Positions 869 to 33,641 of a DNA stretch of 46,399 bases are shown here, in pieces (the stretch's first letter is position 1; each line of letters begins with the position of its first letter). Location of the stretch: positions 1 through 46,399 of the forward strand of contig QPMI01000110.1 of assembly GCA_004431415.1 (NCBI GenBank), written 5' to 3'. This DNA is from Cyanophora paradoxa CCMP329 (Eukaryota; Plantae; Glaucophyta). The notes below the pieces were generated by a model. It made no database searches. It saw only the letters and a list, made by a program, of their open reading frames with translations, and was not told the origin of the DNA. A program made the translations under genes and the position numbers.

Positions 869-1096
869 GTCAGACCAAGGCCTAGAAAATTTTCCAGGCT
901 GGGGTGAGCTTCCACGTGGGCCCCGGGGTACGTCCGCACCTCACCTGAGCACCACCTGAGCCTCACATGAATCACCTGAGCAACGCCTTCTGTCACATCT
1001 GCGGCTCACCTGCGGCTGGGACCCACTCGATTGCGCGAAGCCCGTTTGCCACTTCTGCAAGGGAATAGCCCAGCTGCAGTACGAGGACTCGGAGGA

Positions 1097-2660: not shown

Positions 2661-3728
2661 TCAGGCGAGGCCGCGGTGCTTCCTGAAATTATCTATCATG
2701 CCCAGGAGCGTCTTGTCCACCGTGCCGTCGTCCGGACCCACGAGATTTTCTCCGTTGACGGTTTCGCCCTCCCAGTACTCCTTGGATCCGATGCGGAAGG
2801 GGGGCGGCTCCTCGGCCTTGTAGACGTACAGAACGTCCAGAGGGTTCGTAGAGTTGTTGGAAGAATCGATGATAAGGCAGTGGTTATCCTGCGTGTACTT
2901 GTCGAGCAGGTAGTAGAAGGCGCGCTGGGATATGATGTCGCCCCACTCCTTTGCGAGGGCCTCGCGCTGCATCGCCTGCGAGCACTTGAAAATGACAGCC
3001 AGATCAGTATTGGAGCGCAGGACGGGATTGATGCCCTTGGCATACTGCGTCGTGATAAGGGTCATGATTTTGTAGTGGCGCCCCGCCACGAAGAGCTCGT
3101 TGAGGGCCTCGTCGTACCGCAGCCGAGCGTCGGAAATCACGTCGTCGAGCAGCACGAAAAATCGCGGGTCGACGGGATCCTCCTTTCCCGCGAGCACGTC
3201 TTCGGACTTGTTGTGCTGCATGATCGCCTGCTGCCTCCTGAATAAATGGAAGAGCACGCCCGGGTTGTACTTGGGCCAGATGAAGCGCTGGGGTATGTAC
3301 TGCTTCCAGTACCCGTTCAGGCGATCGGTCTGGCTGATCACGATACCCCCCGGGAAGGTGCCGGAGAGGTTGAACATGAGATCGCGGAGGAAGAAGGACT
3401 TGCCCGTGCGCCGCTTGCCGACGCAGACGACGGTGGCGTCGGACTTGACGGTGTTCACGTCGAACCACTTGAGCTCGGGCAGGCAGGCCATGCGCTCGAT
3501 GCCGCCCGTCTTCGAGTTGTCGAGGAAGGCGTTGACCTGCTCGGGCGTGAGCTGCTGGCCGTCCTCTGTCATGCCCATGGCGCAGCTGGCGCCGGCGGCG
3601 GGGGCGGTGCCCGAGCCCGATCCGGTGGCCTGGCCGGCGGGGGCGGGGGCCGGGGCCGCGCCGGCGGGCTGGGCGGCCTGGGGCTTGGCCGCCTTCGGCT
3701 TCTTCGGCTTCTTGGGGTCCTTGGCCAT
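2661..3728 (-). CDS. A32-like (FtsK/HerA superfamily) genome-packaging ATPase
   Basis: Walker A GKRRTGKS, Walker B FVLLDD, GRHYKI arginine motif, TTQY sensor. Likely start MAKDPKKPK at 3728. Confidence 0.93.
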   Translation of the reverse strand: MAKDPKKPKKPKAAKPQAAQPAGAAPAPAPAGQATGSGSGTAPAAGASCAMGMTEDGQQLTPEQVNAFLDNSKTGGIERMACLPELKWFDVNTVKSDATVVCVGKRRTGKSFFLRDLMFNLSGTFPGGIVISQTDRLNGYWKQYIPQRFIWPKYNPGVLFHLFRRQQAIMQHNKSEDVLAGKEDPVDPRFFVLLDDVISDARLRYDEALNELFVAGRHYKIMTLITTQYAKGINPVLRSNTDLAVIFKCSQAMQREALAKEWGDIISQRAFYYLLDKYTQDNHCLIIDSSNNSTNPLDVLYVYKAEEPPPFRIGSKEYWEGETVNGENLVGPDDGTVDKTLLGMIDNFRKHRGLA

Positions 3729-3765
3729 TTTACCCCCTTCATTCAGATTTTCTTGCGACCCTGGA

Positions 3766-4242
3766 ATGAAGATCCTCGGCGTGGATGTGGGGGTCATTAA
3801 TTTCGCCTGGTGCCTCATCGAATTCGATCCGCAGACAAAGGAATCCCAGATTCTCGACTGGCAGAAGATCGCCCTCTTCCCGTCTGCGCGCTGCTGTGGC
3901 CGCCTTGTGGCGCGCCTGGTGGAGGTTACTCGCGGCCATAGCGCCTTCGGCCTTCCCGACCAGATCGCGATCGAGGGCCAGAGGACGGGAATCAATCGCT
4001 GCATCGAGTGCACGCTCCACGCCCTCCTGTACGGGCGTGCGCGGATCGTGAGCCCGCGCGCCATCAAGCACTTCTTCAAGATCTCGAACCCGAGCTACAA
4101 GGAGCGCAAGCGGGGCGCGGTCGACAAGTGCCGCGACCTCGTACCCGCCGAGCTCGCCGACATCGCGGACCGAAACGGCAAGCTCGACGACCTCTGCGAC
4201 GCCTACCTGATCGCCCTCTACGCCGCCCTCAATCCGGTGTGA
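3766..4242 (+). CDS. RuvC-like Holliday junction resolvase (poxvirus A22-like)
   Basis: MKILGVDVGVINFAW, IAIEGQ, YKERKRGAV and KLDDLCDAYLIA give the catalytic D-E-D-D pattern. Confidence 0.9.
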   Translation: MKILGVDVGVINFAWCLIEFDPQTKESQILDWQKIALFPSARCCGRLVARLVEVTRGHSAFGLPDQIAIEGQRTGINRCIECTLHALLYGRARIVSPRAIKHFFKISNPSYKERKRGAVDKCRDLVPAELADIADRNGKLDDLCDAYLIALYAALNPV

Positions 4243-7891: not shown

Positions 7892-9260
7892 ATGGCTTCC
7901 GCGCTCATCTCCACCCCCTCGACCGCCCTGCACCACTCGCTGCGCAGCTCCGACGCGTCGGTGCACGTGCACGAGACCTTCGACACGGCGATGCCGTTCG
8001 TGGACGAGGTGCTCGAGGTGAGCCCCGTGCAGTCGGGCGTGAGCTTCAGCCAGACCGTCGACATCGTCATCCCGCACTCGGCGCCGATGTTCAACGACTC
8101 CTGGCTCAAGGTGACGCTGCCGGCGCTGACGAACGCGGACCACTTCTACATCCCGAAGGCCGGCTACGTGCTGCTCAAGAAGGTGAAGATCTTCGTGGGC
8201 GCGCAGCTGATCCACGAGTACGACGGCCATTACGACGCCATCTACGGCGAGTTCGAGGACGACAAGTCCGTCGTCCAGCACGTCGACATGGTGAACAACC
8301 TCTGGGCGCACCAGCCGCTGCGCCGCCGGGGCAAGGCCCCGAACACGCTGTACATACCGATTCGCATCGCGACGGGCCACGGTCGAAAGTTCGCCGTGCC
8401 GCTCCACAAGCTCCGCTGCTCCGGAAACGACATGAAGCTGCAGATCACGTACGCCTCGCAGAAGGAGGTGACGGCCTCCTTCGTGGACGGCGGCCTGCAC
8501 ACCAACACCAACCTGACGAGCACCGTCAGCCTGGACACCAAGCTCATCCTGCGCTACGTGCACATCGACTCGCGCGAGCTGGCGCTGCACCCGAACTCGT
8601 TCACGTGGGCCGGCAAGTACGTGCAGCACTACCACGTCTCGTTCGAGTCCGGCAAGGCCATCCGCCTGCCCTTCACCGGAATCTGCTACGAGCTGATCAT
8701 CGTGGTGCGCGACAAGCCGCACACCGACAACGGCGAGCACTTCTGGCGCTTCCGCCCGCTCGACAAGATCGAGCTGAAGTGCGACAACATCAAGGTGCTC
8801 GATAGCTCGAACCACGACGCGCACTTCTTGCGCACGGCCATCGCGCACAAGGAGCACACGCACGCCCCGCCCGCAAGCACCTCGAGCTGCTGCGGGCGTG
8901 ACCTCGATGGACGGGACGGCGGCGGCCGACGTGGCCGACGCGCTGCACCCGCACCCGTGGTCGGGCAACGACACGGCCCCCACGACCCTCGCGACCCACG
9001 ACGGGCACAGCAGCGACATCCAGCCCCGCAACGTGGGCCAGTTCGGGACGGAGTTCATCTACTCGCTCCCCTTCGGCACGGACGTGGCCGACAACACCAA
9101 GATGTTCGGCGGCCTCGACATGGGCGCCTTCAAGACCATCGAGCTCACGCTCACCACGCTCAAGACCTACGGCGCGGACAAGCCCGTGGCCGACATCTAC
9201 TGCCGCTACTACAACGAGATCACCTTCACCAACGGCGGCGCCTACCGCCGCTTCCATTAG
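7892..9260 (+). CDS. Major capsid protein (double jelly-roll, NCLDV-like), one frameshift near 8880-8900
   Basis: Beta-rich ~455 aa. Contains WLKVTLPAL, GYVLLKKVKIFVGAQLIHEYDG, LYIPI, LPFTGICYELIIVVR, FIYSLPFG, GGLDMG and YYNEITFTNGG, matching the NCLDV MCP layout. Confidence 0.88.
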
Positions 9261-13555: not shown

Positions 13556-13680
13556 AGGAGGGGGGGGGGAGAAGTGACGCGGACGCGAAAGATTCCGTCA
13601 TGGGTTTTTCCGTCATGGGCTGGAACTTGGACCTGGGACTCGGGCCCAAACTCTCCCGGTAAAAAAATAGATTCGAACTT
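13556..13680 (+). repeat. Repeat copy A (TTCCGTCATGGG x2 + GGACTCG heptamers), outer left arm
   Basis: Direct repeat of ~14460-14526 and reverse complement of ~17657-17773. Confidence 0.9.
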
Positions 13681-14377: not shown

Positions 14378-14526
14378 TATCTAGCTAGTGCTTGCTAGCG
14401 CTTGCTTAATTAATTAACCTGAAGTTACCTGACATTTACCTGAAAGGTTGCGGAGGTTGCGGACGCGTCACAATTCCGTCATGGGTTTTCCGTCATGGGC
14501 TGGAACTTGGACTCGGGACTCGGCCG
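14376..14526 (+). repeat. Repeat copy B, inner left arm
   Basis: Reverse complement of 17431-17560 (GATATC...TTAATTAA...CCGTCATGGG...CGGCCG). Confidence 0.9.
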
Positions 14527-14754
14527 CAAAACTCGGCGTAAAAAAATACACGTGTTTTTGTCAAGTCTAACGTACCGACTCTGTACCCCTCTATTCGACT
14601 TGAAGGTAATTTCAAGTTGCTATGACATCATACTGAAGTTGCTATGACATTATCGTTATTCACAATCAATGAATACTTTAATGTAGTATAGAACGGTCAT
14701 AGGAGGGGTACGTCGTTCTTGTTCAAGTCTCGAACTTACCAGGAGAATTCCCGG

Positions 14755-15097
14755 TGCGCTGAGCGGGATGCGCTAAGCAGTTGGCTAGGCCCAGAGGCGC
14801 CCCAAGCAGAGAGGGACAGGCCCGTACGGCACCGTAGGGCGGCGGCAAGCGGGTGCCATTACGTACACAGCAGGCGCAGAGCCAGCGTAAGACAGAGAGA
14901 ACAAGAGAACAAGGACGTCGACAGACAGCAAGCGAGCGCCGCGCAGGGCAAGCGAGGGCCCAGGGCTAAAATAAGCGGGCCAGTTGGCAACAACGTGGCA
15001 CCAGGAATAGCAGGCTACAAAGGGTACAAGGCAAGGCAAGCTGCCGGCTTAGAGCCGACGACCAGGGCTAGCTGGGAGTCGGAAAGTGGGCGGCACA
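14755..15097 (-). repeat. LTR (3' LTR in inferred orientation)
   Basis: 343 bp, two visible substitutions relative to 17087-17429. Confidence 0.92.
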
Positions 15098-17086
15098 CGC
15101 TTCCCGCTACAAAAAGCCGTCCTCGGCGCTACGAGCTAAAGGCTGAACTAAAGCTGCGTAGGCGAGGCTGAACGGACTACGAGCCAAAAGCCGGCTACCG
15201 TCCCTGCACAGAAAGCCGTCCTCGGCGCCACAGCGGGCGGGCCAGAGGGGCAAATTAAAATCCATCAGGCCGTCGGCACCAGTATGAGGAACTGGGCCCA
15301 ACAAGGGAAGTTGGGTGAGGGACCCACGACCTGACGCCAGAGCGCGCGGAGCGCCGCCAGCCAACCGGGGGCAAACCCTCTAAATCCCGCCGGAGGGGAA
15401 AACGAGTGCTAGCGCTAGCACTAAGCTCGAATTCGAAACCGGCGCCGCGCCGCAAGCCGCCGGGCTGCGGCGGCGCCGGGTCGAAAGTTCCACAGTGTAG
15501 AAGGTACTTGACGTAGAATGTAGGAGTGTAGGACCGCAGGCTCGATCAGCAGAGCCGCAGCGGCAGAGTACGCGTTGCGGGCCAAGCTCGGCGCAGCTTG
15601 CCGCATTGCGTTGCCAAGTGACTCGGCCAGCGGAGTCACGAGGCGGGGCGATCGGACAGCACAGTAGCGTGTGCAGCCGCGTAAGCGTAGAGCAGGCAAG
15701 CCATGAAGAGTAGAGGCGGCGGGCCAGTCGCACGGGGTCAGGCTCCACAGCAGCGGCAGGCCACTGGTTGCATCATACAGACCCATCGCCAAGGATCCTC
15801 CACGATCGGACGGGATGGCAAACCACGGATACAGCCATCGAGTCCGCCGGTGTACGCAGATGCAGTGCGTAGCCGGGGCTTAGGCAGGCCACCATCGCGG
15901 GACAGGAGACAGCATCAGCGCGGCCCGGAATGATCATCGGTGCTCGCGTGATAGTCGTAGGCAAGAAGACTGGTCGCGGGGCATCACCCAGTGCTGCTTG
16001 CTGACGCTCCTCAACAGACAGGTCCGCTGTCCGCCGTCCAACTTTAGCTATGGCTGCTCACGTCGTCGTAGGACGTCCCAGAGCGCATCCTGTACGCTTC
16101 TGTTGACCTTCGCCCGCCGGACAGGCCTCGGTCAGACCTCCGCCCGCTGAACAGGCCTCGGTCGCTGATCAAACGCCCACGACAGGAAAGAACGACAGTC
16201 CGCACACGCTGGAGATGTGCGTGAAGCGACTGACATCTGGCTTGACGAGCTGGACGTCCCGGAGAAGGGCAGCTACGTCGTCGGAGCCAGGGCAAGGTCT
16301 TGGCATCTTGTCTGCCTTCTCGGTGCGACAGCGCGCACGGTAGAATTGACAACAGATAGATGCGCTTCCTCGCATAGAGATCGCTGTCAAGTGGAGCTGC
16401 GCCGGCTTCCACTGACGCGTACGCAACCCGCAGAGCCGAGAGAGACGCGGAGCCGCACGTCCTCTGGATGCAGGGTGGAGTCAAGTGGAGTGATCCTCAC
16501 GAGGGATGCCACTCGCCGCCGCTGAGCGTGCCTCGGACGGTCCGCAGGCGCCACTGCAGCCGTCGTAGGTGAGACCTCGGGCGCGTACTGGGGCCTTGTT
16601 ATCCCAGGGGCTTTCACGTCGCAGCGGTTTGACTCCATGCGTTCTTCAGATACACTCGCCACCATTGCAATACATTTAGTAGTACGCTGTGGTGTCGTCT
16701 CTCGATACAATACAATACAGTTTCATTCGACATGCGCGCGGGCTGCATCAGCATCTGTTCTTGAGCGCAGCCACGGCACGTTTAGATGACTGTGAGCGCA
16801 TGCGGCTCAATAGACGGGTTGGCGGACGCTTCCCACTACCGAAAGAGTGGTGCGCCGGGGCCGTAAGCAAGAAAAGGCGCGCGCAGTGGCGGGTAGAAAG
16901 GCATGAACCATGCGGTTCGTATTGCTAAGCTCTGCCGCATAGGCGCTTCCCACTACAAGAGAGTGGAGGCCGTACGCGCAAGCCGAGGCAAACGATGGCG
17001 TGCTTGTCCAGGGGTTCGGGCAAGAGCGCAGCGTTCGTCCCCAGGCATACGAGCTAAAAAGTCGAAGCCCAACGCAGCAGCCCCCA

Positions 17087-17429
17087 TGCGCTGGGCGGGA
17101 TGCGCTAAGCAGTTGGCTAGGCCCAGAGGCGCCCCAAGCAGAGAGGGACAGGCCCGTACGGCACCGTAGGGCGGCGGCAAGCGGGTGCCATTACGTACAC
17201 GGCAGGCGCAGAGCCAGCGTAAGACAGAGAGAACAAGAGAACAAGGACGTCGACAGACAGCAAGCGAGCGCCGCGCAGGGCAAGCGAGGGCCCAGGGCTA
17301 AAATAAGCGGGCCAGTTGGCAACAACGTGGCACCAGGAATAGCAGGCTACAAAGGGTACAAGGCAAGGCAAGCTGCCGGCTTAGAGCCGACGACCAGGGC
17401 TAGCTGGGAGTCGGAAAGTGGGCGGCACA
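17087..17429 (-). repeat. LTR (5' LTR in inferred orientation)
   Basis: Followed on the minus strand by TGGGGGCTGCTG, which is PBS-like. Confidence 0.92.
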
Positions 17430-17430
17430 C

Positions 17431-17560
17431 CGGCCGAGTCCCGAGTCCAAGTTCCAGCCCATGACGGAAAACCCATGACGGAATTGTGACGCGTCCGCAA
17501 CCTCCGCAACCTTTCAGGTAATTAATTAAGCAAGCGCTAGCGCTAGCTAGCTAGATATCG
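17431..17560 (-). repeat. Repeat copy C, inner right arm (its other part, 14721-14754, is separated by the LTR element)
   Basis: Inverted copy of B. 14721-14754 plus 17434 onward reconstitutes the sequence seen intact at 17657-17740. Confidence 0.9.
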
Positions 17561-17656: not shown

Positions 17657-17773
17657 GTTCAAGTCTCGAACTTACCAGGAGAATTCCCGGCCGAGTCCCG
17701 AGTCCAAGTTCCAGCCCATGACGGAAAACCCATGACGGAATCTTTTGCGTCCGCGTCATTTCTCCCCCCTCCT
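17657..17773 (-). repeat. Repeat copy D, outer right arm
   Basis: Inverted copy of A, including GCGTCCGCGTCA.TTCTCCCCCC. Confidence 0.9.
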
Positions 17774-20381: not shown

Positions 20382-21700
20382 TCAGTGGTGCAGGTGCCGG
20401 AAGCGCGCGTTGTCCTCGGCCTCCTCGCGCGCCGCCTGCTCCTCCGCCGCGTCGATCTTTGCCCGCGAGGCCTCGCGCGCCGCCCGCCTTGCGTACGAGG
20501 TGGGCACCGGCGCCCGCCGGTAGCTGTAGCCGAGGCCCTTCGCCAGCTCCACGGTCCCGTCCTCGAACGCCCGCCAGCTCTCCACGGCCTCCGCCGCGCT
20601 CATCCGCTCCGCGCGGAAGCCCGCCTCCAGCTCGGCGCGGAAGGCGGTGGCCTCCTGCAGGCGCTGGGCCCAGAGGCCCTGGCGCCGCGCCTCCGCCTCG
20701 CGCGCCTGGCGCGCCGCCAGCGCCCGCCGCTCGGCCCCCTGCTGGGCCCCGAAGCCCATGATCGCGCTGAGGATGGCGCCGGGGCCGGGGATGAACGCGT
20801 CCGGGTCGGGAGCGGCGGCGAAGGCGGCGGGGACGGGGCTGCGGTCGGCGAGGGAGAAGGGGACGGGGCTGGGGCCGGCGCCGTCGGAGGGGGCCGAGCT
20901 CCCGTAGCCGCTCGGGCCCGCGCCGCCGTTCGCCGGGGTACCCTGCCCTTGGATCAGGAGGGGGGCGAGGGGAGGGGGGGTACAGGGAAGGCGGGGGGTA
21001 CGCGGGGCCGGACCTGGCGCGGCAGCATCTCGTCGATGCGCTGCTGGCCGGCGTGCTGCTGGCCGGCGTGCTGCTGGCCGTGCGAGGAGGAGGGCGGCGG
21101 GGGCGGGACGAAGGCGGGGGCCGAGTTGCGGGTGCGCTTGCCCCTGCCGCGGATCGAGGCCTTGACGGGGAAGGGGCCGTTCTCCGGGTCCGCCGGCTCG
21201 AAGAACTGGATGGCCTGCAGCGCCGGCTGGCTCTCGCCGAGGGAGAGGGGGCCTTGGGGACGATGCCGCGGATGTAGGTCTGCCAGATGCCGCCGGCCCT
21301 GTAGGAGAAGAGGCGGCACCTGGGGCCGAAGGCGGCGATGGTCTCGTCCAGCTCGCCGTTCTCGACGTCGGCGGCGACGGCGGCGGCGGCGTCCGGGCCC
21401 TCCGTGCGCGAGATGTACTCGCAGATGCCCGCCACGCTCGTCATGCCGCCCTCCGTCTCCGAGCCGACGAGGTAGGTGGTGGGGTCGACGACGCAGTGGG
21501 TGATGACGAAGCGGGTGAGGGTGCAGGAGGCCGTCTCCTGCCAGAAGGCGAGGCGCTTCGCCCGCAGCCACACCGGCTCGAAGGACTGGATGCAGGAGGC
21601 CTGGCGGCCACCTGCGGCGCGGGCGACGTTAGCGCGTACGACGTCGGGACGGGCGGGAAGGTGCGCGGCTTCGAATCCAGCGGCTCCCCGCGAAGCTGCC
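20382..21700 (-). CDS. Hypothetical protein: globular N-part, Pro-rich middle, coiled-coil C-terminus (multiple frameshifts, start undefined)
   Basis: Coherent segments in ORFs 20083..21573, 20954..21571 and 20382..20759. Confidence 0.45.
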
Positions 21701-22753
21701 TGCGGCCCAGTGAGCGTGCTGCGAGCGGGAGGTGGGAGGGATTGGGCGGGCGGGCCTGCGTCCAGCGCTGAAACGTAGCTCCACTGATGCTATCCGCGAT
21801 GCGCGTAGCCCGCGACTGGCTGCGGACAAGGGAGGGCTTAGCTAGGACAAGAACGGGTGTGGGGCGCGGGCTGGAGGCGCGGGGAGGCGAGCCGGAGCCG
21901 CCGAATCGATGCGCGGGCTTGAGAACGAGATCTAGAAGCGTGCGCAAGTCGCCGCGAACGTCGGCTCGAGTTGCGGAAGGCGCGGCGGCCAATCTCGGCA
22001 CCTGCTCAGAGACCAAATGTCAGCGGACGCGGGCGAATCGAGCGCGAGGTTGCGGGACATGTTCTAGGTGCTAAATGCAAGGATAGAGCGGCAAGAGAGC
22101 GAGCTGGCACCTGCGGGATGCGGCGGAGTGCTCCGGCTCGGGCGCCATCGAGCTTTCGAAGGTCCGCGGCCGGCGCGAGCGACCCTGCGCGTGGCGGCGT
22201 GAGTGCGGCGTCGAGAGAGCTTTCCAGCGCCCAAAATCTGAGGTCCGGAGCTAGCCGTGGTGCGGAGAAAGAGGTTGCGAAGTGAGGCGCACCTCCGAAT
22301 CGAAAGGAGCGAGGCGGCGGCTCTCCGGGCTGAGCGGAATGCAAGCTAGTGCCTCTGGCAAGTGCTGCAAGGAGCGCTGGGCCCGGGCGCTGCGAGATGC
22401 GCTGCCCGGGCGCTTTTTTTCGGGTTGGGGTACTGTGTTTTGAGTCGAAACACGTGGAGCAACCGCGTGAGCCCAAAACTTTCTGAGCTTAGGAGCAAAG
22501 GCGGTCGAGCGCTCGGCCGCGCAAGCTAGCTCCGGCGCGCTCTGCCTTCTCTCTACACGTGTCGCATTCGCGTGCGCTCAAAACTTTCTAAGCTTCGGTC
22601 AAGCAAGGGGCTAGCGCTTCCGAAGTTCTACGCGCGCGCCTCCCCGTCCGCCGGGCCGACGGTCTGCGCGTCACATCGTCCGCTGCGCCAAGAAGGAGAG
22701 ATCAAGACGGTGTCAACCGGGTCTAGTTGAGCGCTTAAGGTCGGACCAAAGCC

Positions 22754-22803
22754 TGTCCCGACCCTCCCAGATCTTTAAATTAATATCTCAGAAGGTCGAG
22801 ACA
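22754..22803 (+). repeat. 50-bp palindrome with AT-rich centre (duplicate copy)
   Basis: TGTCCCGACCCTCCCAGAT-CTTTAAATTAAT-ATCTCAGAAGGTCGAGACA. Confidence 0.9.
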
Positions 22804-22893
22804 GCAGTCCAGACGTCGACTATAGCTAGCCAACAGACGTCGACTAGCCTAGTAGATCTAGAATTTTCCAAGCCTAGCTATAGAGAGACGACC

Positions 22894-24052
22894 ATGGCAA
22901 CCGGACGCGTGTCTCTCGACGTCGACGCCTTCCTGGCCCGTATGCCCGGGCCCGGGTACAGCAGATAGATCTGAGCGAGCAGGAGTGCAGCTTTTTCGTT
23001 CGATTCCCTCTCGTCGAAGTCCAGAAGGCCTGCAGCCCGACCCTGGGACGGCTTTCTGCGTCTTCCACCCGCCCTGCATCACCCCAGCCACTTCTCGGGT
23101 GCCGAGGATGAGACGAGCACTGCGGCAGCCTGCGCCTTTGCAACCAAGTTCGGAGGCTTCACTTTCTCTCGCCCCTTGGATAATGGATTCAAGGCTGCCT
23201 ACGTCCTACAGAGCCCGGAGGCTTGCGATCTCATGGCATGGTTCTTTGGGAGCTCGAGCGGCCTGGAGCTCGGTGTGGATGGCACCGGGGGCTACGTTCT
23301 GCGGGGGCCGGCGCCCGGGCCGCGAGCGGAGCTCCTCCCCACTCCATCCAGAAGCTCGGCGCCCCGCGCTAAGCCCATCCCGGAGCCGGGCGCTCTCCTG
23401 GATTCGAGCCCAAGCCTGCCGGCCTTGGAGCGGCTCCTGGACCGCCTACGCAAGAACAAGGCGGTGAGGGACGAGATCTGGAAGGCGGGGGCAGAGCTGC
23501 GCGCGGACCTTGGCCTGCACGACGCCCGCCGCGTTCAGCACCTTGGAGTCGAGCCCGACGGGTCCATCACCCTCGTCCTGGGCGGGAGTCAGCCGGGGGC
23601 GCCGGCGGCTCGAATCTCCATCCAGGCGCACGGTATTGAAGTCGAGCTCGAGGGGGAGGGGACCGGAGGGGAGTCGGGCAGCGTGGCACAGACCCGCTAT
23701 GTGACCGATCCCTCGCAGCCTGTCGCCTTCGACATTGCCCTCCCCTCCCTCCTGATCGCGCTCGAGTCGACGGGCCTGGAGGCTTGCGTCAATGCAGTGG
23801 ATGAACGCCACCTCTCGTGCAAGATCCTTACCTCCGCATTCGGGGCGCTGGAGCAGAACCCGAGATCCGCTCAGCCGCAGGTCGACGTCATCTGCTCGGG
23901 ACTCAACACGGGGAAGACGCAGGCGCTGATCGATGCGTACCTGGACCCGGCCCTTGCAGGCGGCTGGCGAGTGATCCTCGTGACTTGCCGCCGGGCCTTC
24001 TCCCGCGACCTCAAGCGTCGCATTGATGCTGCGGAGTTGTCAAAGGACGCCG
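22894..24052 (+). pseudogene. 5'-only duplicate of the helicase gene, truncated after motif Ia
   Basis: Same as 25373 onward up to ELSKDA, then runs into duplicated upstream sequence. Confidence 0.8.
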
Positions 24053-25232
24053 GCTCGAAGGACTGGATGCAGGAGGCCTGGCGGCCACCTGCGGCGCGGG
24101 CGACGTTAGCGCGTACGACGTCGGGACGGGCGGGGAAGGTGCGCGGCTTCGAATCCAGCGGCTCCCCGCGAAGCTGCCTGCGGCCCAGTGAGCGTGCTGC
24201 GAGCGGGAGGTGGGAGGGATTGGGCGGGCGGGCCTGCGTCCAGCGCTGAAACGTAGCTCCACTGATGCTATCCGCGATGCGCGTAGCCCGCGACTGGCTG
24301 CGGACAAGGGAGGGCTTAGCTAGGACAAGAACGGGTGTGGGGCGCGGGGCTGGAGGCGCGGGGAGGCGAGCCGGAGCCGCCGAATCGATGCGCGGGCTTG
24401 AGAACGAGATCTAGAAGCGTGCGCAAGTCGCCGCGAACGTCGGCTCGAGTTGCGGAAGGCGCGGCGGCCAATCTCGGCACCTGCTCAGAGACCAAATGTC
24501 AGCGGACGCGGGCGAATCGAGCGCGAGGTTGCGGGACATGTTCTAGGTGCTAAATGCAAGGGATAGAGCGGCAAGAGAGCGAGCTGGCACCTGCGGGATG
24601 CGGCGGAGTGCTCCGGCTCGGGCGCCATCGAGCTTTCGAAGGTCCGCGGCCGGCGCGAGCGACCCTGCGCGTGGCGGCGTGAGTGCGGCGTCGAGAGAGC
24701 TTTCCAGCGCCCAAAATCTGAGGTCCGGAGCTAGCCGTGGTGCGGAGAAAGAGGTTGCGAAGTGAGGCGCACCTCCGAATCGAAAGGAGCGAGGCGGCGG
24801 CTCTCCGGGCTGAGCGGAATGCAAGCTAGTGCCTCTGGCAAGTGCTGCAAGGAGCGCTGGGCCCGGGCGCTGCGAGATGCGCTGCCCGGGCGCTTTTTTT
24901 CGGGTTGGGGTACTGTGTTTTGAGTCGAAACACGTGGAGCAACCGCGTGAGCCCAAACTTTCTGAGCTTAGGAGCAAAGGCGGTCGAGCGCTCGGCCGCG
25001 CAAGCTAGCTCCGGCGCGCTCTGCCTTCTCTCTACACGTGTCGCATTCGCGTGCGCTCAAAACTTTCTAAGCTTCGGTCAAGCAAGGGGCTAGCGCTTCC
25101 GAAGTTCTACGCGCGCGCCTCCCCGTCCGCCGGGCCGACGGTCTGCGCGTCACATCGTCCGCTGCGCCAAGAAGGAGAGATCAAGACGGTGTCAACCGGG
25201 TCTAGTTGAGCGCTTAAGGTCGGACCAAAGCC

Positions 25233-25282
25233 TGTCCCGACCCTCCCAGATCTTTAAATTAATATCTCAGAAGGTCGAGACA
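25233..25282 (+). repeat. 50-bp palindrome upstream of the helicase gene
   Basis: Same element, 90 bp before the ATG. Confidence 0.9.
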
Positions 25283-25372
25283 GCAGTCCAGACGTCGACT
25301 ATAGCTAGCCAACAGACGTCGACTAGCCTAGTAGATCTAGAATTTTCCAAGCCTAGCTATAGAGAGACGACC

Positions 25373-28300
25373 ATGGCAACCGGACGCGTGTCTCTCGACG
25401 TCGACGCCTTCCTGGCCCGTATGCCCGGGCCCGGGGTACAGCAGATAGATCTGAGCGAGCAGGAGTGCAGCTTTTTCGTTCGATTCCCTCTCGTCGAAGT
25501 CCAGAAGGCCTGCAGCCCGACCCTGGGGACGGCTTTCTGCGTCTTCCACCCGCCCTGCATCACCCCAGCCACTTCTCGGGTGCCGAGGATGAGACGAGCA
25601 CTGCGGCAGCCTGCGCCTTTGCAACCAAGTTCGGAGGCTTCACTTTCTCTCGCCCCTTGGATAATGGATTCAAGGCTGCCTACGTCCTACAGAGCCCGGA
25701 GGCTTGCGATCTCATGGCATGGTTCTTTGGGAGCTCGAGCGGCCTGGAGCTCGGTGTGGATGGCACCGGGGCTACGTTCTGCGGGGGCCGGCGCCCGGGC
25801 CGCGAGCGGAGCTCCTCCCCACTCCATCCAGAAGCTCGGCGCCCCGCGCTAAGCCCATCCCGGAGCCGGGCGCTCTCCTGGATTCGAGCCCAAGCCTGCC
25901 GGCCTTGGAGCGGCTCCTGGACCGCCTACGCAAGAACAAGGCGGTGAGGGACGAGATCTGGAAGGCGGGGGCAGAGCTGCGCGCGGACCTTGGCCTGCAC
26001 GACGCCCGCCGCGTTCAGCACCTTGGAGTCGAGCCCGACGGGTCCATCACCCTCGTCCTGGGCGGGAGTCAGCCGGGGCGCCGGCGGCTCGAATCTCCAT
26101 CCAGGCGCACGGTATTGAAGTCGAGCTCGAGGGGAGGGACCGGAGGGGAGTCGGGCAGCGTGGCACAGACCCGCTATGTGACCGATCCCTCGCAGCCTGT
26201 CGCCTTCGACATTGCCCTCCCCTCCCTCCTGATCGCGCTCGAGTCGACGGGCCTGGAGGCTTGCGTCAATGCAGTGGATGAACGCCACCTCTCGTGCAAG
26301 ATCCTTACCTCCGCATTCGGGCGCTGGAGCAGAACCCGAGATCCGCTCAGCCGCAGGTCGACGTCATCTGCTCGGGACTCAACACGGGGAAGACGCAGGC
26401 GCTGATCGATGCGTACCTGGACCCGGCCCTTGCAGGCGGCTGGCGAGTGATCCTCGTGACTTGCCGCCGGCCTTCTCCCGCGACCTCAAGCGTCGCATTG
26501 ATGCTGCGGAGTTGTCAAAGGACGCCGTGCTTTACATGGACATCAAGAAGCCACCGGAGAGCTCAAAGGGATCGCATGGCAAGTGGGGCTTCCGCCATGA
26601 GGAGTGCAGGTGCGTCGTCATCACATGGGACTCGCTGCACAAGGTGCTCGAGGACTGGGAGGGCTGGTCGACGGCGCCGCTACTGGTCGTGCTGGACGAG
26701 CTCTCCTCCCTCACGAAGCACCTCACCTCGAGCGGCACCCTCGAGCCCACCGGCCTGCACCTAGGTATGCGGTCAGTGCCTCGAAACGCGCGCTGCGTGG
26801 GCCTATGGCGCGGCGTGATGAAGGCATCGCGCATCGTGGCGATGGACGGCTTCGTTCGGTCGGTCGATCTCGCGTACCTGGCAGAGTCGGCGCAGGAGGT
26901 CGGGGCGCGCCTGGGGCTCCTGTACAACTCGCATCGCACCTGCGACTGGAAGATGCGCGTGTCAGACAGCCCGGCGCACGTCGAGGCGGACATCATGGCG
27001 CTGTGCAGACCGGGGCGCTGCCGGGCGATGATCATTGCAGAGACGCCGGCCAAGGCGATCGAGATGCAGGAGAAGATTGCGAAGCAGGCGCTGGAGCAGC
27101 TCAGCCTGGGCGGCGCTCAGTACGTGACTCAGCTCGAGGCAGGGCCCGAGGACGGCAGCGGCGCACCGTTCACGATCGGGCTCATCGTTGGGCAGGCCAA
27201 GGAGAAGAGCGTGCGCTTCACGAACGACGGCCCAGTGCGCATCGTGTCGATCGATGTGTCTGAGGAGGGCGCGTACAAGGCCTGCGACGTGCTCATCGCA
27301 ACTTCCGCGCTCGGGGCAGGCGTGGACTTTTCGGACGCGCACTTTGACAAGGTCTACGGCGTGTTCCAGGCAGAGCCCGCGCAGCTGGAGGCGGACGACA
27401 TCGTGCAGCTGCTGTTTCGAGTCAGAAGGCTGCGCAAACGCAGCACGCCCGACGGAGAGCACCTGCTCGTCGCCGTGCGCAAGAACCGGACGCCCTCGGT
27501 TGCGGTCGGCGCGGCGGCTGCGCACTGGCGTGAGAGCGACGACGACGAGAGCTCGGACGACATGCAGCGCTACCTGGACCTGAAGGCTAGCCACCGCGGG
27601 AGCCGCCGCGCCGGCATGCCCACTCGGCGCCTCGCAGTGGCAGCGCGCCTGCGGCTGATGTCGACCTGCGCGCTGATGAACGTGCAAGTCACGGAGGATC
27701 AAAACCGAGCGGACCGAAGCAGGAGAAGGAGCAGCGGCTGCGCGAGATCAGGAGCGTGCTGGAGGCGGGCGCGCTGGAGCCCGTCGATCTGTGGAGCACG
27801 GTGCTGGCCTGGAGGCAGTCCCGCGAGTCTCTCGCTAAGCTGGACATCGAGAAGGTTGCTTCGCTTGCTCGCACGTCGATCGCCGCGTTCCTGGCCAAGG
27901 ATCCGAGCGAGCTGACCGAAGGAGACGTCGCCTGGATGTGGGATTCGTTCTACTCCATCCCGCTCACTGCCGTGGTCACGCTGGTGCTGAAGCATGGCGC
28001 GGACGTTGCCGAGATCGTGCCTACTGCTGAGCGCCTCAAGGTATCGAAGGTCGTCGCGCTGTTCAAGAAACTCTTCGGCTGGCGGGGTATGGAAAGCTCG
28101 CGGGGCGTGCTCTGTGGTCGGACGAAGCCTACGCGGCCCTGGCGTCGCCGGAGGGTCGGGAGGCGTACGCGGCTCTGCAGAGTCTGGACGAGCGCGCGCC
28201 CCGCTTCGATGCAGCGGACGGTGAGAAGAAGCGGCTCTCGCAGCAGTCTTGGCAAGTCATCAAGTACCTGCTGGAGAAGTACCTCGGAGTGAGACGCGCT

Positions 28301-28636: not shown

Positions 28637-28920
28637 TTGCGAGGGCGGACGAGAGTGAGGGCATGCACTCTCTATGTGTCCCGACCTTTTCTGAACAACT
28701 CATGATTGCCGTATCATCGATCTGCATTTACTCACTTCGTTCTCTGTCGCTTGCACATGCGCGGTGTGGGATTACTAATTAGATCTAGTCTCCCTAGCCC
28801 TCTGCGGCCGCCTTCCTGCCCCCCTGCAAAGAGCAGCTCAACCAAATCCTGTGGGGTCTGATTCATTGCAGACTCGCCTTCCCCGCCTGGGCCTGAGCTA
28901 CACCAAGCTACGGTGAGTCC

Positions 28921-29268
28921 GACCAAGAGACGTGTCCGGACCCTCCCTACTTTCTTTATAGATTATTGGAAAGGTCCGGACACTAGAGGAGGGAGGGCGT
29001 ACATAAGTAGTCTGACCAAGAGACGTGTCCCGACCCTCCCAGATCTTTAAATTAATATCTGAGAGGGTCGAGACACTAGAGGAGGGCGTACATAAGTAGT
29101 CTGACCAAGAGACGTGTCCCGACCCTCCAGATCTTTAAATTAATATCTGAGAGGGTCGAGACACTAGAGGAGGGCGTACATAAGTAGTCTGACCAAGAGA
29201 CGTGTCCCGACCCTCCCAGATCTTTAAATTAATATCTGAGAGGGTCGGGACACTAGAGGAGGGCGTAC
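28921..29268 (+). repeat. Tandem array of four ~89-bp units, each carrying the 50-bp palindrome
   Basis: Palindromes at 28933-28982 (divergent), 29026-29075, 29115-29163 and 29203-29252, with near-identical spacers. Confidence 0.93.
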
Positions 29269-29887
29269 GACTTAAACTCGCGCAGCGCCGCCTGCTCCTC
29301 GCTGAGGTTCTCTGACTTCATTCGATCGCTGTAGGGCTCGGGCGGAGTTCCAGCCTTCACGTGCATCCAAAATAGATGTAAGCACCGCCGCATGAGCTCG
29401 ATGTACCTCTCGTCCCGTCTGACGTACCACGTTTGCACGCGCAGAGGCGTGAAACAGAAAAGTTCGGCCCAGTCGCGGCCCGTTATGTCCAGCAGGCCCT
29501 GAAGTTGAGTCATGTAATAGGTAGGAACGCTATCGTAAAGTTCGCCCTTGTAAGGGCATTTCACCTCTAAAATCCTATCATTTCCTATCAGTCCGTCGGG
29601 GCTCCCGGCGAGGAACGGCATTTCTTTGTGTTCGTGCAGTCCAGTGTGTTGAATGTCCACGTTATCGTTCAGTGCCTTGTAGATAGAGACCGCGAGGGGC
29701 TCGTAGTCGTGCCCGTAGGTTAGGGCAGGGTTGTCAAAGTTGTTTTCCTCCGCGATCCGCTCAGCTCCGCCCAGAGGCGGGCCCTGGATTTCCACGGGTT
29801 GATGCCGCACGCGGCGGCAAAGTTCGAGGCGGTTAGCTTTTCGCGGCGCGCAGCGTGCCACGCCGCGCTCCCCTGTTGTAGGTCCAT
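29253..29887 (-). CDS. YqaJ/lambda-type PD-(D/E)XK exonuclease (one frameshift)
   Basis: QGSAAWHAARREKLTASNF, YGHDYEPLA, FLAGSPDGL, LEVKCPY and YYMTQLQGLLDI. Confidence 0.93.
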
Positions 29888-29939
29888 AGCTCGTAGCCTC
29901 GCAGTAGCGTTTAGAATTTCTCGTTGTGTGCAATTGCAA

Positions 29940-30625
29940 ATGTCGGATGACGAAGATTCGAGCCCGGTCCCGCAGATGGACGAAGATTCGAGCCCCGAAG
30001 AGTTCCTGACTCGCGTTAGGGGCCTGGCCCATTGGATACGAGATAAGTTCAAGGAGGGGATGCGAAATCGGATAGGAACGTCGTCCTTTCCGCTGAGGGG
30101 GCTAGCCCCTGTTGCAGCCCAGGGGCTGCGGGATACCGTGAGGCTCGCCCCCCATCCTATGATCGGAACTGGGACTTCAGCAGTGTGCTTACGTCCCTGT
30201 ACGTGGCGCTGATGTCGCCTAGAAGCCGCGTGGCCCGTCTGCCGAACGAGGCCAGATTGAAGATCATGAACTTCTTACTCGCAGGTAGAGACGGGCGCGA
30301 AGGCGATGTGATCAATGGGCTTCGAAATGAGATACAGTGGTACATGCGTACAGGCGAAGGCGGTGTCCGACAGTACGACGGCTCACGGTACACAGAGCTC
30401 GAGATTCCACGCGAGCTCGTACCCCGGAGCTGGCAAGAGCTTCCGCCCGCCCCACCCCCGCCCCCCGCCTACGTATCCCCCTTTGACTCGAGGCCCCCCA
30501 TCAACGAGCGCAAGCGACTGCGCGACTGGCTGCAGGACGATCGAAACCGTCTGCCGGTGAGGCAAAGGTCGGCACTATACCCCCAGAGGAGGAGGCGTAC
30601 CCCGTTTTCGAGAACAATCGCCTGA
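29940..30625 (+). CDS. Hypothetical protein, paralogue family member 1 (F-box-like LP motif), frameshifted
   Basis: EEFLTRVRGLAHWIRDKF and SRVARLPNEARLKIMNFL. Confidence 0.6.
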
Positions 30626-30680
30626 CGTGGAGGTGGACGTGATAGGGGGTACGGGTAGATATTCTCAGCGAGCCGCGAGC

Positions 30681-31432
30681 ATGGCGCGGACACGCGAGTC
30701 CGACGTGCTGTACAACAACGGCCCCATCATCGTGAGATCCTACAGCGGACCGTGGACTTGGACGACGCACAATCCGATCTGCACCGGCGGCGATGGGCGA
30801 TGGGCCCCGATTCGGGGAGCGGATCGCCCGGGGAGAACTTTATGGAACGCGTGCTGTACCTCGTGCGCTGGATACGAGATAAGTTTAACGACGATCAAGA
30901 GTTTCCAGATCAAAACACCATCGGCGCAGCACGTTTCATGGGTATGACGATCAATCCACGCAATCATGGCAGGCGAGAACGCAGGGATCTGAACGGCGAT
31001 TGGGCGGACCTACAAGCACTGTGGATGGCCTTTGCGAACCGCAAGAGCCAGATCCTCGCTCTGCCCGCGCGGGTGCAGGAGCGTATCATTGACTTTGTGG
31101 CACCGTGGCGCTTCGAGAGCCTTGACCCGCAGACTGTGCAGCCCCGCTTCCTCAGACGACTGCGAAACGCCTTCTACCACCTGGCGCTGAGCGACGGCCA
31201 GTACTTCACGCCTCAGAGAATCGATCACGGTGAATTCGGTATACCCCCCGAGTGGGCAAACTTTGGCATGGTACCCCCGCCGCGGCCCCTCCTCTACGGC
31301 CCCCCCTCCCCCTCACCTGAGCAGCGTGAGTCACTCAAGCGTCAGAGGGAGGTACGCGAATGGATGGACGACACCAGTCACTGGGTACAGGGCGAGGCCG
31401 AGTTACGCAAGTTCGCTAGGCTCGGGCAGTAA
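30681..31432 (+). CDS. Hypothetical protein, paralogue family member 2, frameshifted
   Basis: ENFMERVLYLVRWIRDKF and SQILALPARVQERIIDFV. Confidence 0.6.
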
Positions 31433-31544
31433 CCGCAGGGGGTACAGCATTCAGTTAGAGTCCGAGCCTAGTTAGAGGCCGGGAGGCCCCCGGGGGGTAC
31501 ATTGGACGTGTTAGTCCCCCTGCCTCCCCGAATGCAATATAACA

Positions 31545-31814
31545 ATGCAACCTCCGCAACGCGTGACTCATCAACCTCCGAGGGTTAACAATGCATTGAC
31601 AGCGAAGGGGCAAGCTCGAGAGCTCGACCCTTGGCAAGAGCCCACCTATATACGCTTCAACTCTGTGCCGTTGCGCAACCCGGAACCGACTGCCATTTAT
31701 ATAGAACTGGATGGCCGGCCCCGGTCCCGGACGCACCGACGTGTTCTGGGTCTAGATGCTGGCCATCCCGTGAACAGGGTGCAACCTGCACGTCAGCACC
31801 GGCGCGAATCGTGA
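31545..31814 (+). CDS. Small hypothetical protein
   Basis: ATG ORF after an AT-rich leader. Confidence 0.4.
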   Translation: MQPPQRVTHQPPRVNNALTAKGQARELDPWQEPTYIRFNSVPLRNPEPTAIYIELDGRPRSRTHRRVLGLDAGHPVNRVQPARQHRRES

Positions 31815-31882
31815 GAAACGAGCTAAAGGTGCAATTGCACAGCGGTTGCAGCCCTAAAGGTGCTCTGCGCGCGCGCGTACCT

Positions 31883-32741
31883 CTACGCGGATGGATCCGT
31901 CCTTCTTTCCCCTGTGGTCAACGATCGGCAGCGTCTCCGCAATGTCTGCGGCGGCGCGCGGCGCGCGGCACGTGTCAGGGCCGGACACGAGCTCGAGCTC
32001 GCGGCAGCTGGCGGCGGCGCAGGCACCGAATAGGTACGAAAGCGGCTCCAGGAAGAGGTGCGCCCGTCCGATCTGCGTGTCTTCCGGCGGGTCCCAGAAC
32101 GGCTGCCGGCCGATCGCGAAAGTGAGGGGGGGATGGGGGGGGGGGGGGGGGGGGGGAAGGGATGCACGTTTTCGTCACGGGGAATGGCGAATGGCCCCTC
32201 TTCGGTCCAGCGGTTGTAGAGGTCGCGTGCAATGTGGAGCCGCAAATCGAACTTGTCGGGAGACCACGTCCACACCTGCGATTAATTCAAACAAATTAAT
32301 CAAAGTCACGAAGTGTCATGCAGGTGCCACGGTGCAGCTGCTGTCCCGGTATCTAGGAGCGCATGCGCGCGCATGCACGGACCGCCTTTGTGAGCAAGTT
32401 GGTGACACGCAACTGGACGTCCTTCAGTTCGAAGAGCTTCAGCTCGAACACCGTCCGCTGCCGCATTTCCTCCGCCAGCGTGTTCAACTCGTTCACCTGT
32501 TCGGTGCGCCCGTGTTCAAGTGGCGAATCTCTGCTTTTGTCTTAAATAAAATTACCTCTGGAATGAGGCGGCTCAGTTGGTACTCCATGAGCGCCAGCTC
32601 CCGCTTCCGCTTCATGGCTTCCTCCTCGCGCTCCTCCTTGAGTTGCTTCTGCAGCTCCAGCTCCGCTTCGAGCTCGAGGATGCGCGCCGCCATCGCGTCG
32701 CCGCCCTTCGCCTCCTTCAGCTCGGCTTGCAGCTTCTGAAC
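31883..32741 (-). CDS. Intron-containing coiled-coil/Pro-rich protein (exons 32741-32556, 32496-32383, 32275-~31883)
   Basis: Removing GT..AG segments 32555-32497 and 32382-32276 joins three reading segments in phase 0. Confidence 0.6.
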
Positions 32742-32852
32742 CTGTACGTATATATACGAGGGCCAACAATGGGCCAAACGCGAAAAGTCAACTCCGAGAG
32801 CTCGAGACTCGGAAGTGACGCTTGGATTGCGGAGGTTCTTATAACCGCCGGG

Positions 32853-32990
32853 TCACAGCTGGGGGGTACCGTAGACGAGGCTGGTGATCGCCATGATCGC
32901 GACGATCGCGATGACGATTCCGATCACGACGATCGCGAAAACGAGACGATCGCGACCATTTTCGATCGCGATTTCGGGGAGGGGGTCCAT
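32853..32990 (-). CDS. 45-aa single-pass membrane micro-protein
   Basis: MDPLPEIAIENGRDRLVFAIVVIGIVIAIVAIMAITSLVYGTPQL*, with upstream TATTTTCT. Below the ORF-track cut-off. Confidence 0.55.
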   Translation of the reverse strand: MDPLPEIAIENGRDRLVFAIVVIGIVIAIVAIMAITSLVYGTPQL

Positions 32991-33063
32991 TTTGGGCCGG
33001 GGTAGAGAAAATAAATGCGAAAAGGCCGAAAAGTGCGTTTTTCACGCGTGAAATCGATCGAAA

Positions 33064-33170: not shown

Positions 33171-33641
33171 ATGTCAGGCAATCTCTATTACGATTTTCCC
33201 TTTGAGTTGAATATGGCATTCGAAAGGTTGCGCGAGTTCTGGCGTTGGCACCTCACGGGACATGACATCCCCGACGTAACACCAGAGCCCAACTTACAGG
33301 GCGTGCTTGAAGTCATCCGTCAATATCCGCGTCGATTCAATGAATGGATTGAGTTCCACGCGACGAGCCGTTTCCAGAGCCTCCCCGAGGCCATACGCGA
33401 AAATTTCGTGAGGCTGGTGGGACCAGGCTACGACAACCCTAACAATCATAGACCACGCCCAGCTGGCGTGACACGCGAAGCTCGAGAAGACCGTAGACTT
33501 TTCCGCAGGGAATTGAGAGAGGATAGACGGAGGCTTTCAATGGGGCTCCCGCAGATTGTGAGGGGGTACAGCCCGGATTACGAGACTTACCAAGAATTGT
33601 ACGGCTTCGAAAATCCCTTTGAGAGGGCACTACCAGGGTGA
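33171..33641 (+). CDS. Hypothetical protein, possible distant member of the LP-motif family
   Basis: SRFQSLPEAIRENFVRLV, with upstream AAATTTTCGG. Confidence 0.6.
   Translation: MSGNLYYDFPFELNMAFERLREFWRWHLTGHDIPDVTPEPNLQGVLEVIRQYPRRFNEWIEFHATSRFQSLPEAIRENFVRLVGPGYDNPNNHRPRPAGVTREAREDRRLFRRELREDRRRLSMGLPQIVRGYSPDYETYQELYGFENPFERALPG

What the first reader, a model, noticed from the sequence alone, without database searches (positions are those of the whole stretch)
32276..32742. Spliceosomal introns inside a viral gene
Minus strand: ...LIPE|gtaatt..59 nt..aacag|VNELNTLAEEMRQRTVFELKLFELKDVQLRVTNLLTKA|gtccgt..107 nt..atcgcag|VWTWSPDKF... Both introns are GT-AG and phase 0, and removing them eliminates stops and restores one helical protein. 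A further acceptor (tacgtacag|GTT) lies at 32742. This indicates host Pol II transcription and splicing, or recent capture of a host gene.
Basis: partly seen in the sequence, partly recalled or inferred. Interest (0 to 1): 0.7.

Follow-up and report, generated by a model that had tools for sequence, protein, structure and literature searches.

The report
Host kinesin fragment inside endogenous virus
A small virus genome that is likely integrated in an alga's chromosomes carries a cut-off piece of a kinesin motor gene split by five introns, likely copied from host DNA, so it is likely captured cargo rather than a native viral gene.

Summary
Six exons (32741-31737, minus) give 199 stop-free codons: the CC2 helix, the whole MBS domain and a stub of the MATH domain of a kinesin-3, without motor or FHA. 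The window is a Mriyavirus-like element; its capsid gene sits on at least 23 contigs labelled Cyanophora paradoxa, whereas this protein was found once. A diverged host kinesin gene (about 86% identical in aligned exons) is spliced in RNA at introns 3, 4 and 5 exactly, and compatibly at intron 2, so these came with captured genomic DNA. Intron 1 is absent from that host gene's DNA and RNA and sits at an AG|GT site: gained in this copy, or lost in the host gene. Whether this copy is expressed is open. The acceptor at 32742 is likely only the cassette border. In passing: RNA contigs show a spliced antisense transcript over the viral nuclease gene, direct evidence that this virus family's RNA is spliced. 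The scan noted a similar spliced host-style gene in another algal virus.

The parts
32556..32741 (-). Exon 1 (62 codons): CC2-like helix and start of the MBS domain; first in-frame ATG at 32693-32691
   Evidence: host mRNA aligns 32574-32697 and, read by eye, runs on in register beyond it (tables 7-8)
32497..32555 (-). Intron 1, 59 nt, phase 0, 44% GC, no CTRAY branch motif, at an AG|GT site (AGGT on both sides); absent from the host gene's DNA and mRNA
   Evidence: joint 32498-32574: 16 letters where the window has 75, in DNA run X2 and RNA runs X21, X24
32383..32496 (-). Exon 2 (38 codons); 54 nt (18 codons) shorter than the host mRNA over this interval
   Evidence: record 27; loop of 12 residues; 1 of 72 homologues as short
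32276..32382 (-). Intron 2, 107 nt, phase 0; the host gene has 120 nt of intron in this interval and its RNA match stops at this acceptor (shared position inferred)
32168..32275 (-). Exon 3 (36 codons); carries N at a position that is D in 99% of homologues
32103..32167 (-).
   Evidence: host mRNA has 4 letters where the window has 69
32027..32102 (-). Exon 4 (76 nt), PFWDP motif; end of MBS, start of MATH
31946..32026 (-). Intron 4, 81 nt, phase 1, CTGAC branch motif
   Evidence: RNA joint 31945-32027 skips 81 in X21 and X24, not in X1 or X2
31881..31945 (-). Exon 5 (65 nt)
31786..31880 (-). Intron 5, 95 nt, phase 0, CTGAC branch motif; read through in the database model P0001
   Evidence: RNA loose end at 31881 continues with exon-6-like codons; 101 of 154 homologue alignments extend into exon 6
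31737..31785 (-). Exon 6 (49 nt), last kinesin-like exon
31655..31736 (-). Donor GTGCGT of a cut-off sixth intron plus filler; stop at about 31661-31659 if read through
   Evidence: that the capture ends inside this intron is inferred
32750..32869 (.). Right flanking module (TATA-like end, GTGACGC, AACCTCCGCAA, GGGGGGTAC); other contigs carry it next to different DNA
   Evidence: loose ends at 32749 and 32750
31493..31654 (.). Left flanking module with the same short motifs facing inward; other contigs carry it next to different DNA
   Evidence: loose ends at 31645 and 31654
7892..9257 (+). Context: major capsid protein (one frameshift in the window)
2667..4239 (.). Context: A32-type packaging ATPase (minus) and A22-type resolvase (plus, 3742-4239)
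29256..29900 (-). Context: YqaJ/PDDEXK nuclease, overlapped by a spliced plus-strand RNA (intron 29378-29444)

Best explanation
This is a both-ends-truncated piece of a kinesin-3 gene (six exons, five GT-AG introns) lying between two repeated modules of a Mriyavirus-like element, likely captured as host genomic DNA into one integrated copy and likely a passenger. Shown: exon-intron anatomy, kinesin-3 identity, a diverged host gene spliced at the same places, different DNA beside the same modules in other contigs. Inferred mechanism: the virus lives in the nucleus (no DNA or RNA polymerase found), and during replication or repair about 1.1 kb of a host kinesin gene was joined into a variable cassette slot at the TATA-like ends of the modules. 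Inferred donor: a paralogue, or the orthologue of a related earlier host, that was under selection as a full-length kinesin, which would explain the intact frame at 14% divergence; introns 2-5 came with it, and intron 1 either came with it too or was gained at an AG|GT site.
For: Spliced product = kinesin-3 CC2-MBS-MATH stub: 7wrg E 4e-11; residues 33-127 on KLP-6 590-695, Z 13.3, rmsd 1.6, 95 aligned, and on the KIF13B MBS, Z 10.8, rmsd 2.1, 96 aligned; 8 of 12 scanned homologues (of 149 non-self hits listed) carry a motor domain. DNA-level capture: introns 3, 4, 5 are removed at the same places in host mRNA contigs of two studies, and a host genomic contig covers introns 3-4; a sixth donor is cut off. 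One copy among many: P0001 is a one-member cluster and the only hit among 83 candidates, while the capsid gene is on 23 named contigs among 24 members read; other contigs continue from both modules into other DNA. Contig depth points the same way (insert 82-96, host gene 67, viral neighbours 920-1369 in X2) but is only a hint. Passenger: only about 55 residues follow the MBS, against about 145 modelled after it in KLP-6, so the MATH sandwich is cut; a 99%-conserved D is N and a loop is shortened. 20 of 24 listed runs, 18 studies of one organism, 2012-2024, hold the stretch at 0.91-0.93 (one may be the window's own source).
Against: The donor itself was not found: the host gene seen differs at 43 of 305 aligned exon bases, by one intron and by 18 codons. 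The copy shows two frame-keeping changes (a 54-nt shortening, a spliceable insertion at one of only 2 AGGT sites in 598 nt), keeps 18 of 19 strongly conserved columns, has an in-frame ATG about 55 nt after a TATA-like motif and a whole MBS domain; neutral decay at 5-10% would keep frame and splice sites with probability 0.14 to 0.0008 in my simulation. All of this also fits selection inside the virus. Integration is inferred; no host junction lies in the window and the genome was not held.
Confidence: 0.62

Rival explanations
1. Domesticated viral gene: the fragment was captured long ago, kept under selection in the virus, transcribed from the right-hand module by host Pol II, spliced, and gained intron 1 there. 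The free CC2-MBS domain would bind host kinesin-3 motors or cargo adaptors as a brake or decoy.
For: Open frame over 199 codons and 10 intact splice sites at about 14% divergence; 9 of 14 listed exon differences are at third positions and 8 of 10 GC/AT changes leave the copy AT-richer; no CpG-decay signal (1 of 14; CpG o/e 1.12); whole MBS fold; in KLP-6 the MBS packs on the motor and binds adaptors (PMC9314371 passages); this family's RNA is spliced elsewhere.
Against: Found once against at least 23 capsid-bearing contigs; MATH cut short; D to N at a near-invariant site; intron 1 has no branch motif and, if retained, ends the frame at 32493; the changes cannot be assigned to a branch without an outgroup.
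Confidence: 0.2
2. Pack-type transposon cargo: a non-autonomous host transposon (the two modules being its ends) picked up the kinesin fragment and jumped into the viral element after integration.
For: Both modules occur beside different DNA and end at TA-rich points; a 9-bp direct repeat GGGGGGTAC flanks the unit; another inverted-repeat-bounded insert lies at 14436-17521. Capture of intron-bearing fragments by Pack-MULEs and Helitrons is recalled, not from a call.
Against: The modules are not inverted repeats (score 28 against a shuffled mean of 30.5); GGGGGTAC occurs 8 times on the plus strand, several at viral gene ends; the modules' motifs recur in other viral intergenic regions; an RNA contig carries the right module followed by the next viral stretch 32947-33050 (record 23).
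Confidence: 0.13
3. Assembly chimera or sequencing artefact: a host contig misjoined into the viral one, or indels that mimic introns.
For: The window has many frameshifts; short-read contigs add single bases at 30147, 30555 and 30731.
Against: Short-read contigs of two runs match the insert with no difference and reach about 30 nt into both modules (31625 and 32779/32787); a separate host gene contig exists.
Confidence: 0.05

Closest known systems
Mriyaviricetes (Yutin et al., 10.1101/2024.02.29.582850; parts 1-3 of 6 read, plus a term search) and their endogenous copies in a glaucophyte assembly (10.1101/2025.04.19.649669; passages and section 10)
   Same: About 46 kb; capsid, A32 ATPase, A22 resolvase, VLTF3-like gene, HUH motif, UL9-like helicase, PDDEXK nuclease; no polymerase found; predicted nuclear life. 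Endogenous Mriya-like regions in Glaucocystophyceae are already reported.
   Different: The first paper has 0 occurrences of 'intron', 'integrat' or 'endogen'; the second states that introns were not considered. No captured intron-bearing host DNA in the passages seen; their supplements were not seen.
Intron-bearing genes of punuivirus, the latent giant virus of Chlamydomonas (10.64898/2026.10.09.758095; passages)
   Same: Host-like GT-AG introns in an integrated algal DNA virus.
   Different: There 61 of 506 genes, checked against RNA, some tied to latency; here one truncated host fragment in a 46-kb virus, expression open, and a host gene with the same intron positions in view.
Intron-rich mirusviruses (PMC12768974; passages)
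   Same: Spliceosomal introns in a virus without its own transcription machinery; intron gain discussed.
   Different: Their introns interrupt core virion genes; here core genes show frameshifts but no intron was established in them, and the introns are in host cargo.
Kinesin-3 KLP-6/KIF13B CC2-MBS-MATH tail (PMC9314371 passages; PDB 7wrg, 5b64)
   Same: MBS fold and sequence, start of MATH.
   Different: No motor, neck or FHA; MATH cut; cannot be a motor.
Pack-MULE / Helitron gene-fragment capture (recalled)
   Same: Intron-bearing, both-ends-truncated host gene piece between repeated ends.
   Different: No terminal inverted repeats; the carrier appears to be a virus with an HUH motif rather than a transposon.

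Membership tests
U2-type spliceosomal introns | GT...AG ends whose removal restores a homologous frame | tested here: met
   5 of 5; 199 codons, 0 stops; six-exon product scores above P0001 in 132, equal in 19, lower in 3 of 154 homologues
U2-type spliceosomal introns | Branch-point motif | tested here: inconclusive
   CTGAC in introns 4 and 5, TTRAT in intron 2, none in introns 1 and 3
U2-type spliceosomal introns | Removed from RNA | tested here: inconclusive
   Shown for the host gene at positions 3, 4, 5; open for this copy
Kinesin-3 | N-terminal motor domain and FHA | tested here: not met
   P0001 hits only KIF1B PF12423 (E 2e-4, just under cut-off) and a weak DUF; host-like sequence stops at 32741
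Kinesin-3 | MBS domain | tested here: met
   Z 13.3, rmsd 1.6, 95 aligned to 7wrg; Z 10.8, rmsd 2.1, 96 aligned to 5b64
Kinesin-3 | Complete eight-stranded MATH domain | tested here: not met
   Two long strands after residue 127 in the model; sequence match ends at KLP-6 734, modelled chain runs to 841
Mriyaviricetes | Nucleocytoviricota-type double jelly-roll capsid, A32 ATPase, RuvC/A22 | tested here: met
   Capsid_N 1e-7, Pox_A32 1e-4 (22.1 bits, cut-off 22.8), Pox_A22 8e-8; low-confidence capsid model (pLDDT 47) matches NCLDV capsids
Mriyaviricetes | VLTF3 and VLTF2 | tested here: inconclusive
   Zn ribbon at 980-1669 and Pox_VLTF3 E 0.023 on the next frame; VLTF2 not identified
Mriyaviricetes | HUH endonuclease | tested here: inconclusive
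   Motif LHAHILL near 404 minus; no Pfam or PDB hit for that 99-aa piece
Mriyaviricetes | SF2 or SF3 helicase and PDDEXK nuclease | tested here: met
   Herpes_ori_bp E 2e-4, YqaJ E 2e-14
Mriyaviricetes | No DNA or RNA polymerase; 35-45 kb | tested here: inconclusive
   None among 36 + 7 window frames scanned, but frames are broken and element ends unknown; 46.4 kb includes a 2.5-kb duplication
Mriyaviricetes | Falls in the Mriya clade of capsid/ATPase trees | not tested
   No reference Mriya sequences were fetched; one search found no locus in viral contigs
Pack-MULE | Long terminal inverted repeats | tested here: not met
Pack-MULE | 9-11-bp target-site duplication | tested here: inconclusive
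   GGGGGGTAC on both sides, but the motif recurs in the element
Introner (intron 1) | Insertion at a proto-splice site with duplicated AGGT | tested here: met
   equally the pattern left by precise intron loss in the host gene
Introner (intron 1) | Family of similar introns | tested here: inconclusive
   No match at E<=1 elsewhere in the window; genome not held

The most novel reading that the evidence does not exclude
A 46-kb nuclear virus domesticated the brake-and-cargo (CC2-MBS) domain of its host's kinesin-3 as a five-intron gene behind a viral promoter, kept it in frame under selection, and gained a new spliceosomal intron at an AG|GT site after capture: a motor-less kinesin decoy, and an intron gain with the intron-free host gene still in the same genome.
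Probability: 0.17. Interest if true: 0.72.

Novelty: new member of a known kind. Interest (0 to 1): 0.4.

Why it matters
It is a clear, datable case of host genomic DNA, introns included, entering a small Nucleocytoviricota relative, which supports the predicted but unshown nuclear life of mriyaviruses and shows one route by which such viruses pick up cytoskeletal genes. The pair (insert with intron 1, host gene without) makes an intron gain-or-loss event directly testable in a cultured alga. The spliced antisense RNA over the nuclease gene is RNA evidence that the host spliceosome handles transcripts of this virus family.

Tried and rejected
No RNA holder listed for 31700-32760 (4 RNA-guess runs at 0.00), and no RNA contig identical to the insert among the pieces shown for X21 and X24 (316 pieces not shown): a blank, used neither for nor against expression. 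The host gene's protein was not found: 1 hit, the locus's own model; 0 of 1457 candidates; best full-length non-self hits about 40%; the labelled Cyanophora kinesin P0008 is 37%, a paralogue; 0 of 204 stretches in metagenome contigs. No sister locus in viral contigs. No genome held. Single exons and the exon 4-5 frame gave no Pfam hit and no real PDB hit. Inverted-repeat ends rejected. CpG-methylation decay as the source of divergence rejected on 14 listed differences. Tandem duplication as the origin of intron 1 rejected: only a 9-mer is shared with exon 2, and it occurs twice more in the window. Motif scan for other introns gave 43 candidates, untested apart from those named. Atlas search for the neighbouring ORF: best score 0.89, a lead only. 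No complex prediction was run: it would likely pass by likeness to 7wrg. Literature searches; none listed this insert by title or abstract start, and bioRxiv supplements were not seen.

Full report
Observation. Reading on shows three more (65, 81 and 95 nt; phases 0, 1, 0) and a sixth donor at 31736. Joining the six exons 32741-31737 gives 199 codons without a stop. The protein collection holds a model of this very locus, P0001, 175 aa, labelled Cyanophora paradoxa; it splices introns 1-4 as I do and reads through intron 5. It is a prediction from the same DNA, not independent proof. Short-read contigs of two runs match 31625-32120 and 32169-32779/32787 with no differences, so polishing does not remove the introns, although the same contigs do correct single-base errors at 30147, 30555 and 30731.

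Identity. P0001 matches KLP-6 588-734 at E 4e-11, Pfam KIF1B at E 2e-4 and 486 proteins at E<=0.001. Of 12 of the 149 listed non-self hits scanned, 8 have a kinesin motor, 11 KIF1B and 9 FHA. The six-exon product scores above P0001 for 132 of 154 homologues, equal for 19, lower for 3, and 101 alignments run into exon 6. The model (pLDDT 95) lays residues 33-127 on the whole MBS domain of KLP-6 (Z 13.3, rmsd 1.6, 95 aligned) and KIF13B (Z 10.8, rmsd 2.1, 96 aligned). What follows is only the start of the eight-stranded MATH domain (PMC9314371 passages). There is no motor and no FHA.

Context. The window holds a Nucleocytoviricota-type capsid, A32 ATPase, A22 resolvase, a VLTF3-like gene, a UL9-like helicase, a YqaJ nuclease and an HUH motif, and no polymerase among the frames scanned: the gene set of Mriyaviricetes (10.1101/2024.02.29.582850, parts 1-3 of 6 read). 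Tree placement was not tested. 13 of 14 capsid hits are EukProt contig models; 23 of 24 members read from five clusters are labelled C. paradoxa, each on a different contig. Mriya-like regions embedded in a glaucophyte assembly (10.1101/2025.04.19.649669, section 10) and methylated, mostly silent viral genes in C. paradoxa (PMC12344493 passages) are in print. The stretch is held at 0.91-0.93 by 20 of 24 listed runs from 18 studies of one organism. Integration is therefore likely but inferred.

The host gene. Laying four runs on 29300-33050 at 80% likeness shows a second, diverged sequence: a genomic contig in X2 and contigs in X21 and X24 that behave as mRNA. The mRNA skips intron 4 exactly (81 nt), has 4 letters where the window has 69 at intron 3, and after exon 5 continues with codons that, read by eye, give 5 of 10 residues identical to exon 6, so intron 5 is shared. 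Its match stops at the acceptor of intron 2, and the genomic contig is 120 nt longer than the mRNA there, so intron 2 is likely shared. Three aligned exon pieces differ at 43 of 305 bases; the unaligned ends differ more, so 14% is a floor. Two larger differences: the mRNA is 54 nt longer in exon 2, and both the host DNA and the mRNA have 16 letters where the window has 75 across intron 1, so the host gene has no intron there.

Intron 1. It is the odd one: 44% GC against 53-81%, donor GTAATT against GC-rich donors, no branch motif. It sits at AG|GT, one of 2 AGGT sites in the 598-nt coding sequence, so any insertion with a 4-bp duplication there would end GT-AG. A random insertion would rarely hit such a site; so either it is an old intron that the host gene lost, or a gain that survived because it can be spliced. 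If retained it ends the frame at 32493. Polarity needs an outgroup.

Borders. The insert (about 31655-32749) lies between two modules that share short motifs facing inward but are not inverted repeats. Other contigs carry each module beside different DNA, breaking at the TATA-like ends, and the motifs recur in other viral intergenic regions. The neighbours are paralogous orphan ORFs with GGGGGTAC at their junctions, one of which sister copies skip. This reads as a variable cassette slot. The AG at 32742 is 7 nt from the module end and has no partner exon. P0001 was found once. Contig depth (X2: insert 82-96, host gene 67, neighbours 920-1369; X1: 14-18 against 115-147) agrees but is no copy number.

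Passenger or tool? For function: open frame, 10 intact splice sites, 18 of 19 columns conserved at >=80% kept (73-sequence alignment, 72 of 149 hits used, chosen among the stronger, longer ones), a whole MBS domain, an ATG about 55 nt after a TATA-like motif, 9 of 14 listed differences at third positions (one more exon row, 32171, seen only in DNA, and two intron rows were left out; 163 rows were not shown), and simulated neutral decay of 5-10% keeping all this with probability 0.14-0.0008. Against: one copy, MATH cut, D to N at a 99% column, loop shortened. The signs of selection are explained as well if the donor was a paralogue or the orthologue of a related host that was not seen; I rate that higher because it needs no new function. 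Expression is open.

Comparison. Spliceosomal introns in integrated or nuclear algal viruses are known: punuivirus (passages), mirusviruses, pandoraviruses, chloroviruses and decaying endogenous elements (PMC12768974 passages). Kinesin is mentioned in giant-virus papers (search listing only). The founding Mriya paper has no occurrence of 'intron'. Verdict: a real, well-resolved capture of host DNA by a Mriya-like endogenous virus; a new member of a known kind, interest 0.4, with a 0.17 chance of the more striking reading.

Noticed in passing
window 28880-29700, plus strand: Spliced antisense RNA over the YqaJ gene: RNA contigs of two studies skip 29378-29444 (67 nt, GTAAGC...CTGAC...CAG), a joint not listed in the two other runs, and their loose end matches 28882-28911, implying a 422-nt intron (donor 28913) that removes the 89-bp hairpin array. 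No long open frame in the stretch tested. Strand is inferred from the splice signals.
   Followed up: partly
window 29946-31429 and 33173-33640: Paralogous orphan ORFs with GGGGGTAC at their junctions; sister copies skip 29945-30644, as in a cassette array.
   Followed up: partly
window 14436-17521: 91-nt perfect inverted repeats around 344-nt direct repeats (14755-15098, 17087-17430) and about 2 kb without clear genes; arm sequence recurs at 13561-13662 and 17672-17772.
   Followed up: no
window 21573-26527: Near-perfect 2.48-kb tandem duplication of the front of the UL9-like helicase block; real or assembly error not tested.
   Followed up: no
window 22754, 25233, 28587 and 28916-29268: A 50-nt near-palindrome flanks the helicase block and forms an 89-bp array of about four copies; candidate replication origin for the HUH protein.
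   Followed up: no
window 142-900, minus: Frameshifted frame with an HUH motif.
   Followed up: partly
P0157-P0189 (database): Capsid genes of this family on about 30 contigs of one host, many full-length and 93-99% alike: a recent expansion.
   Followed up: partly
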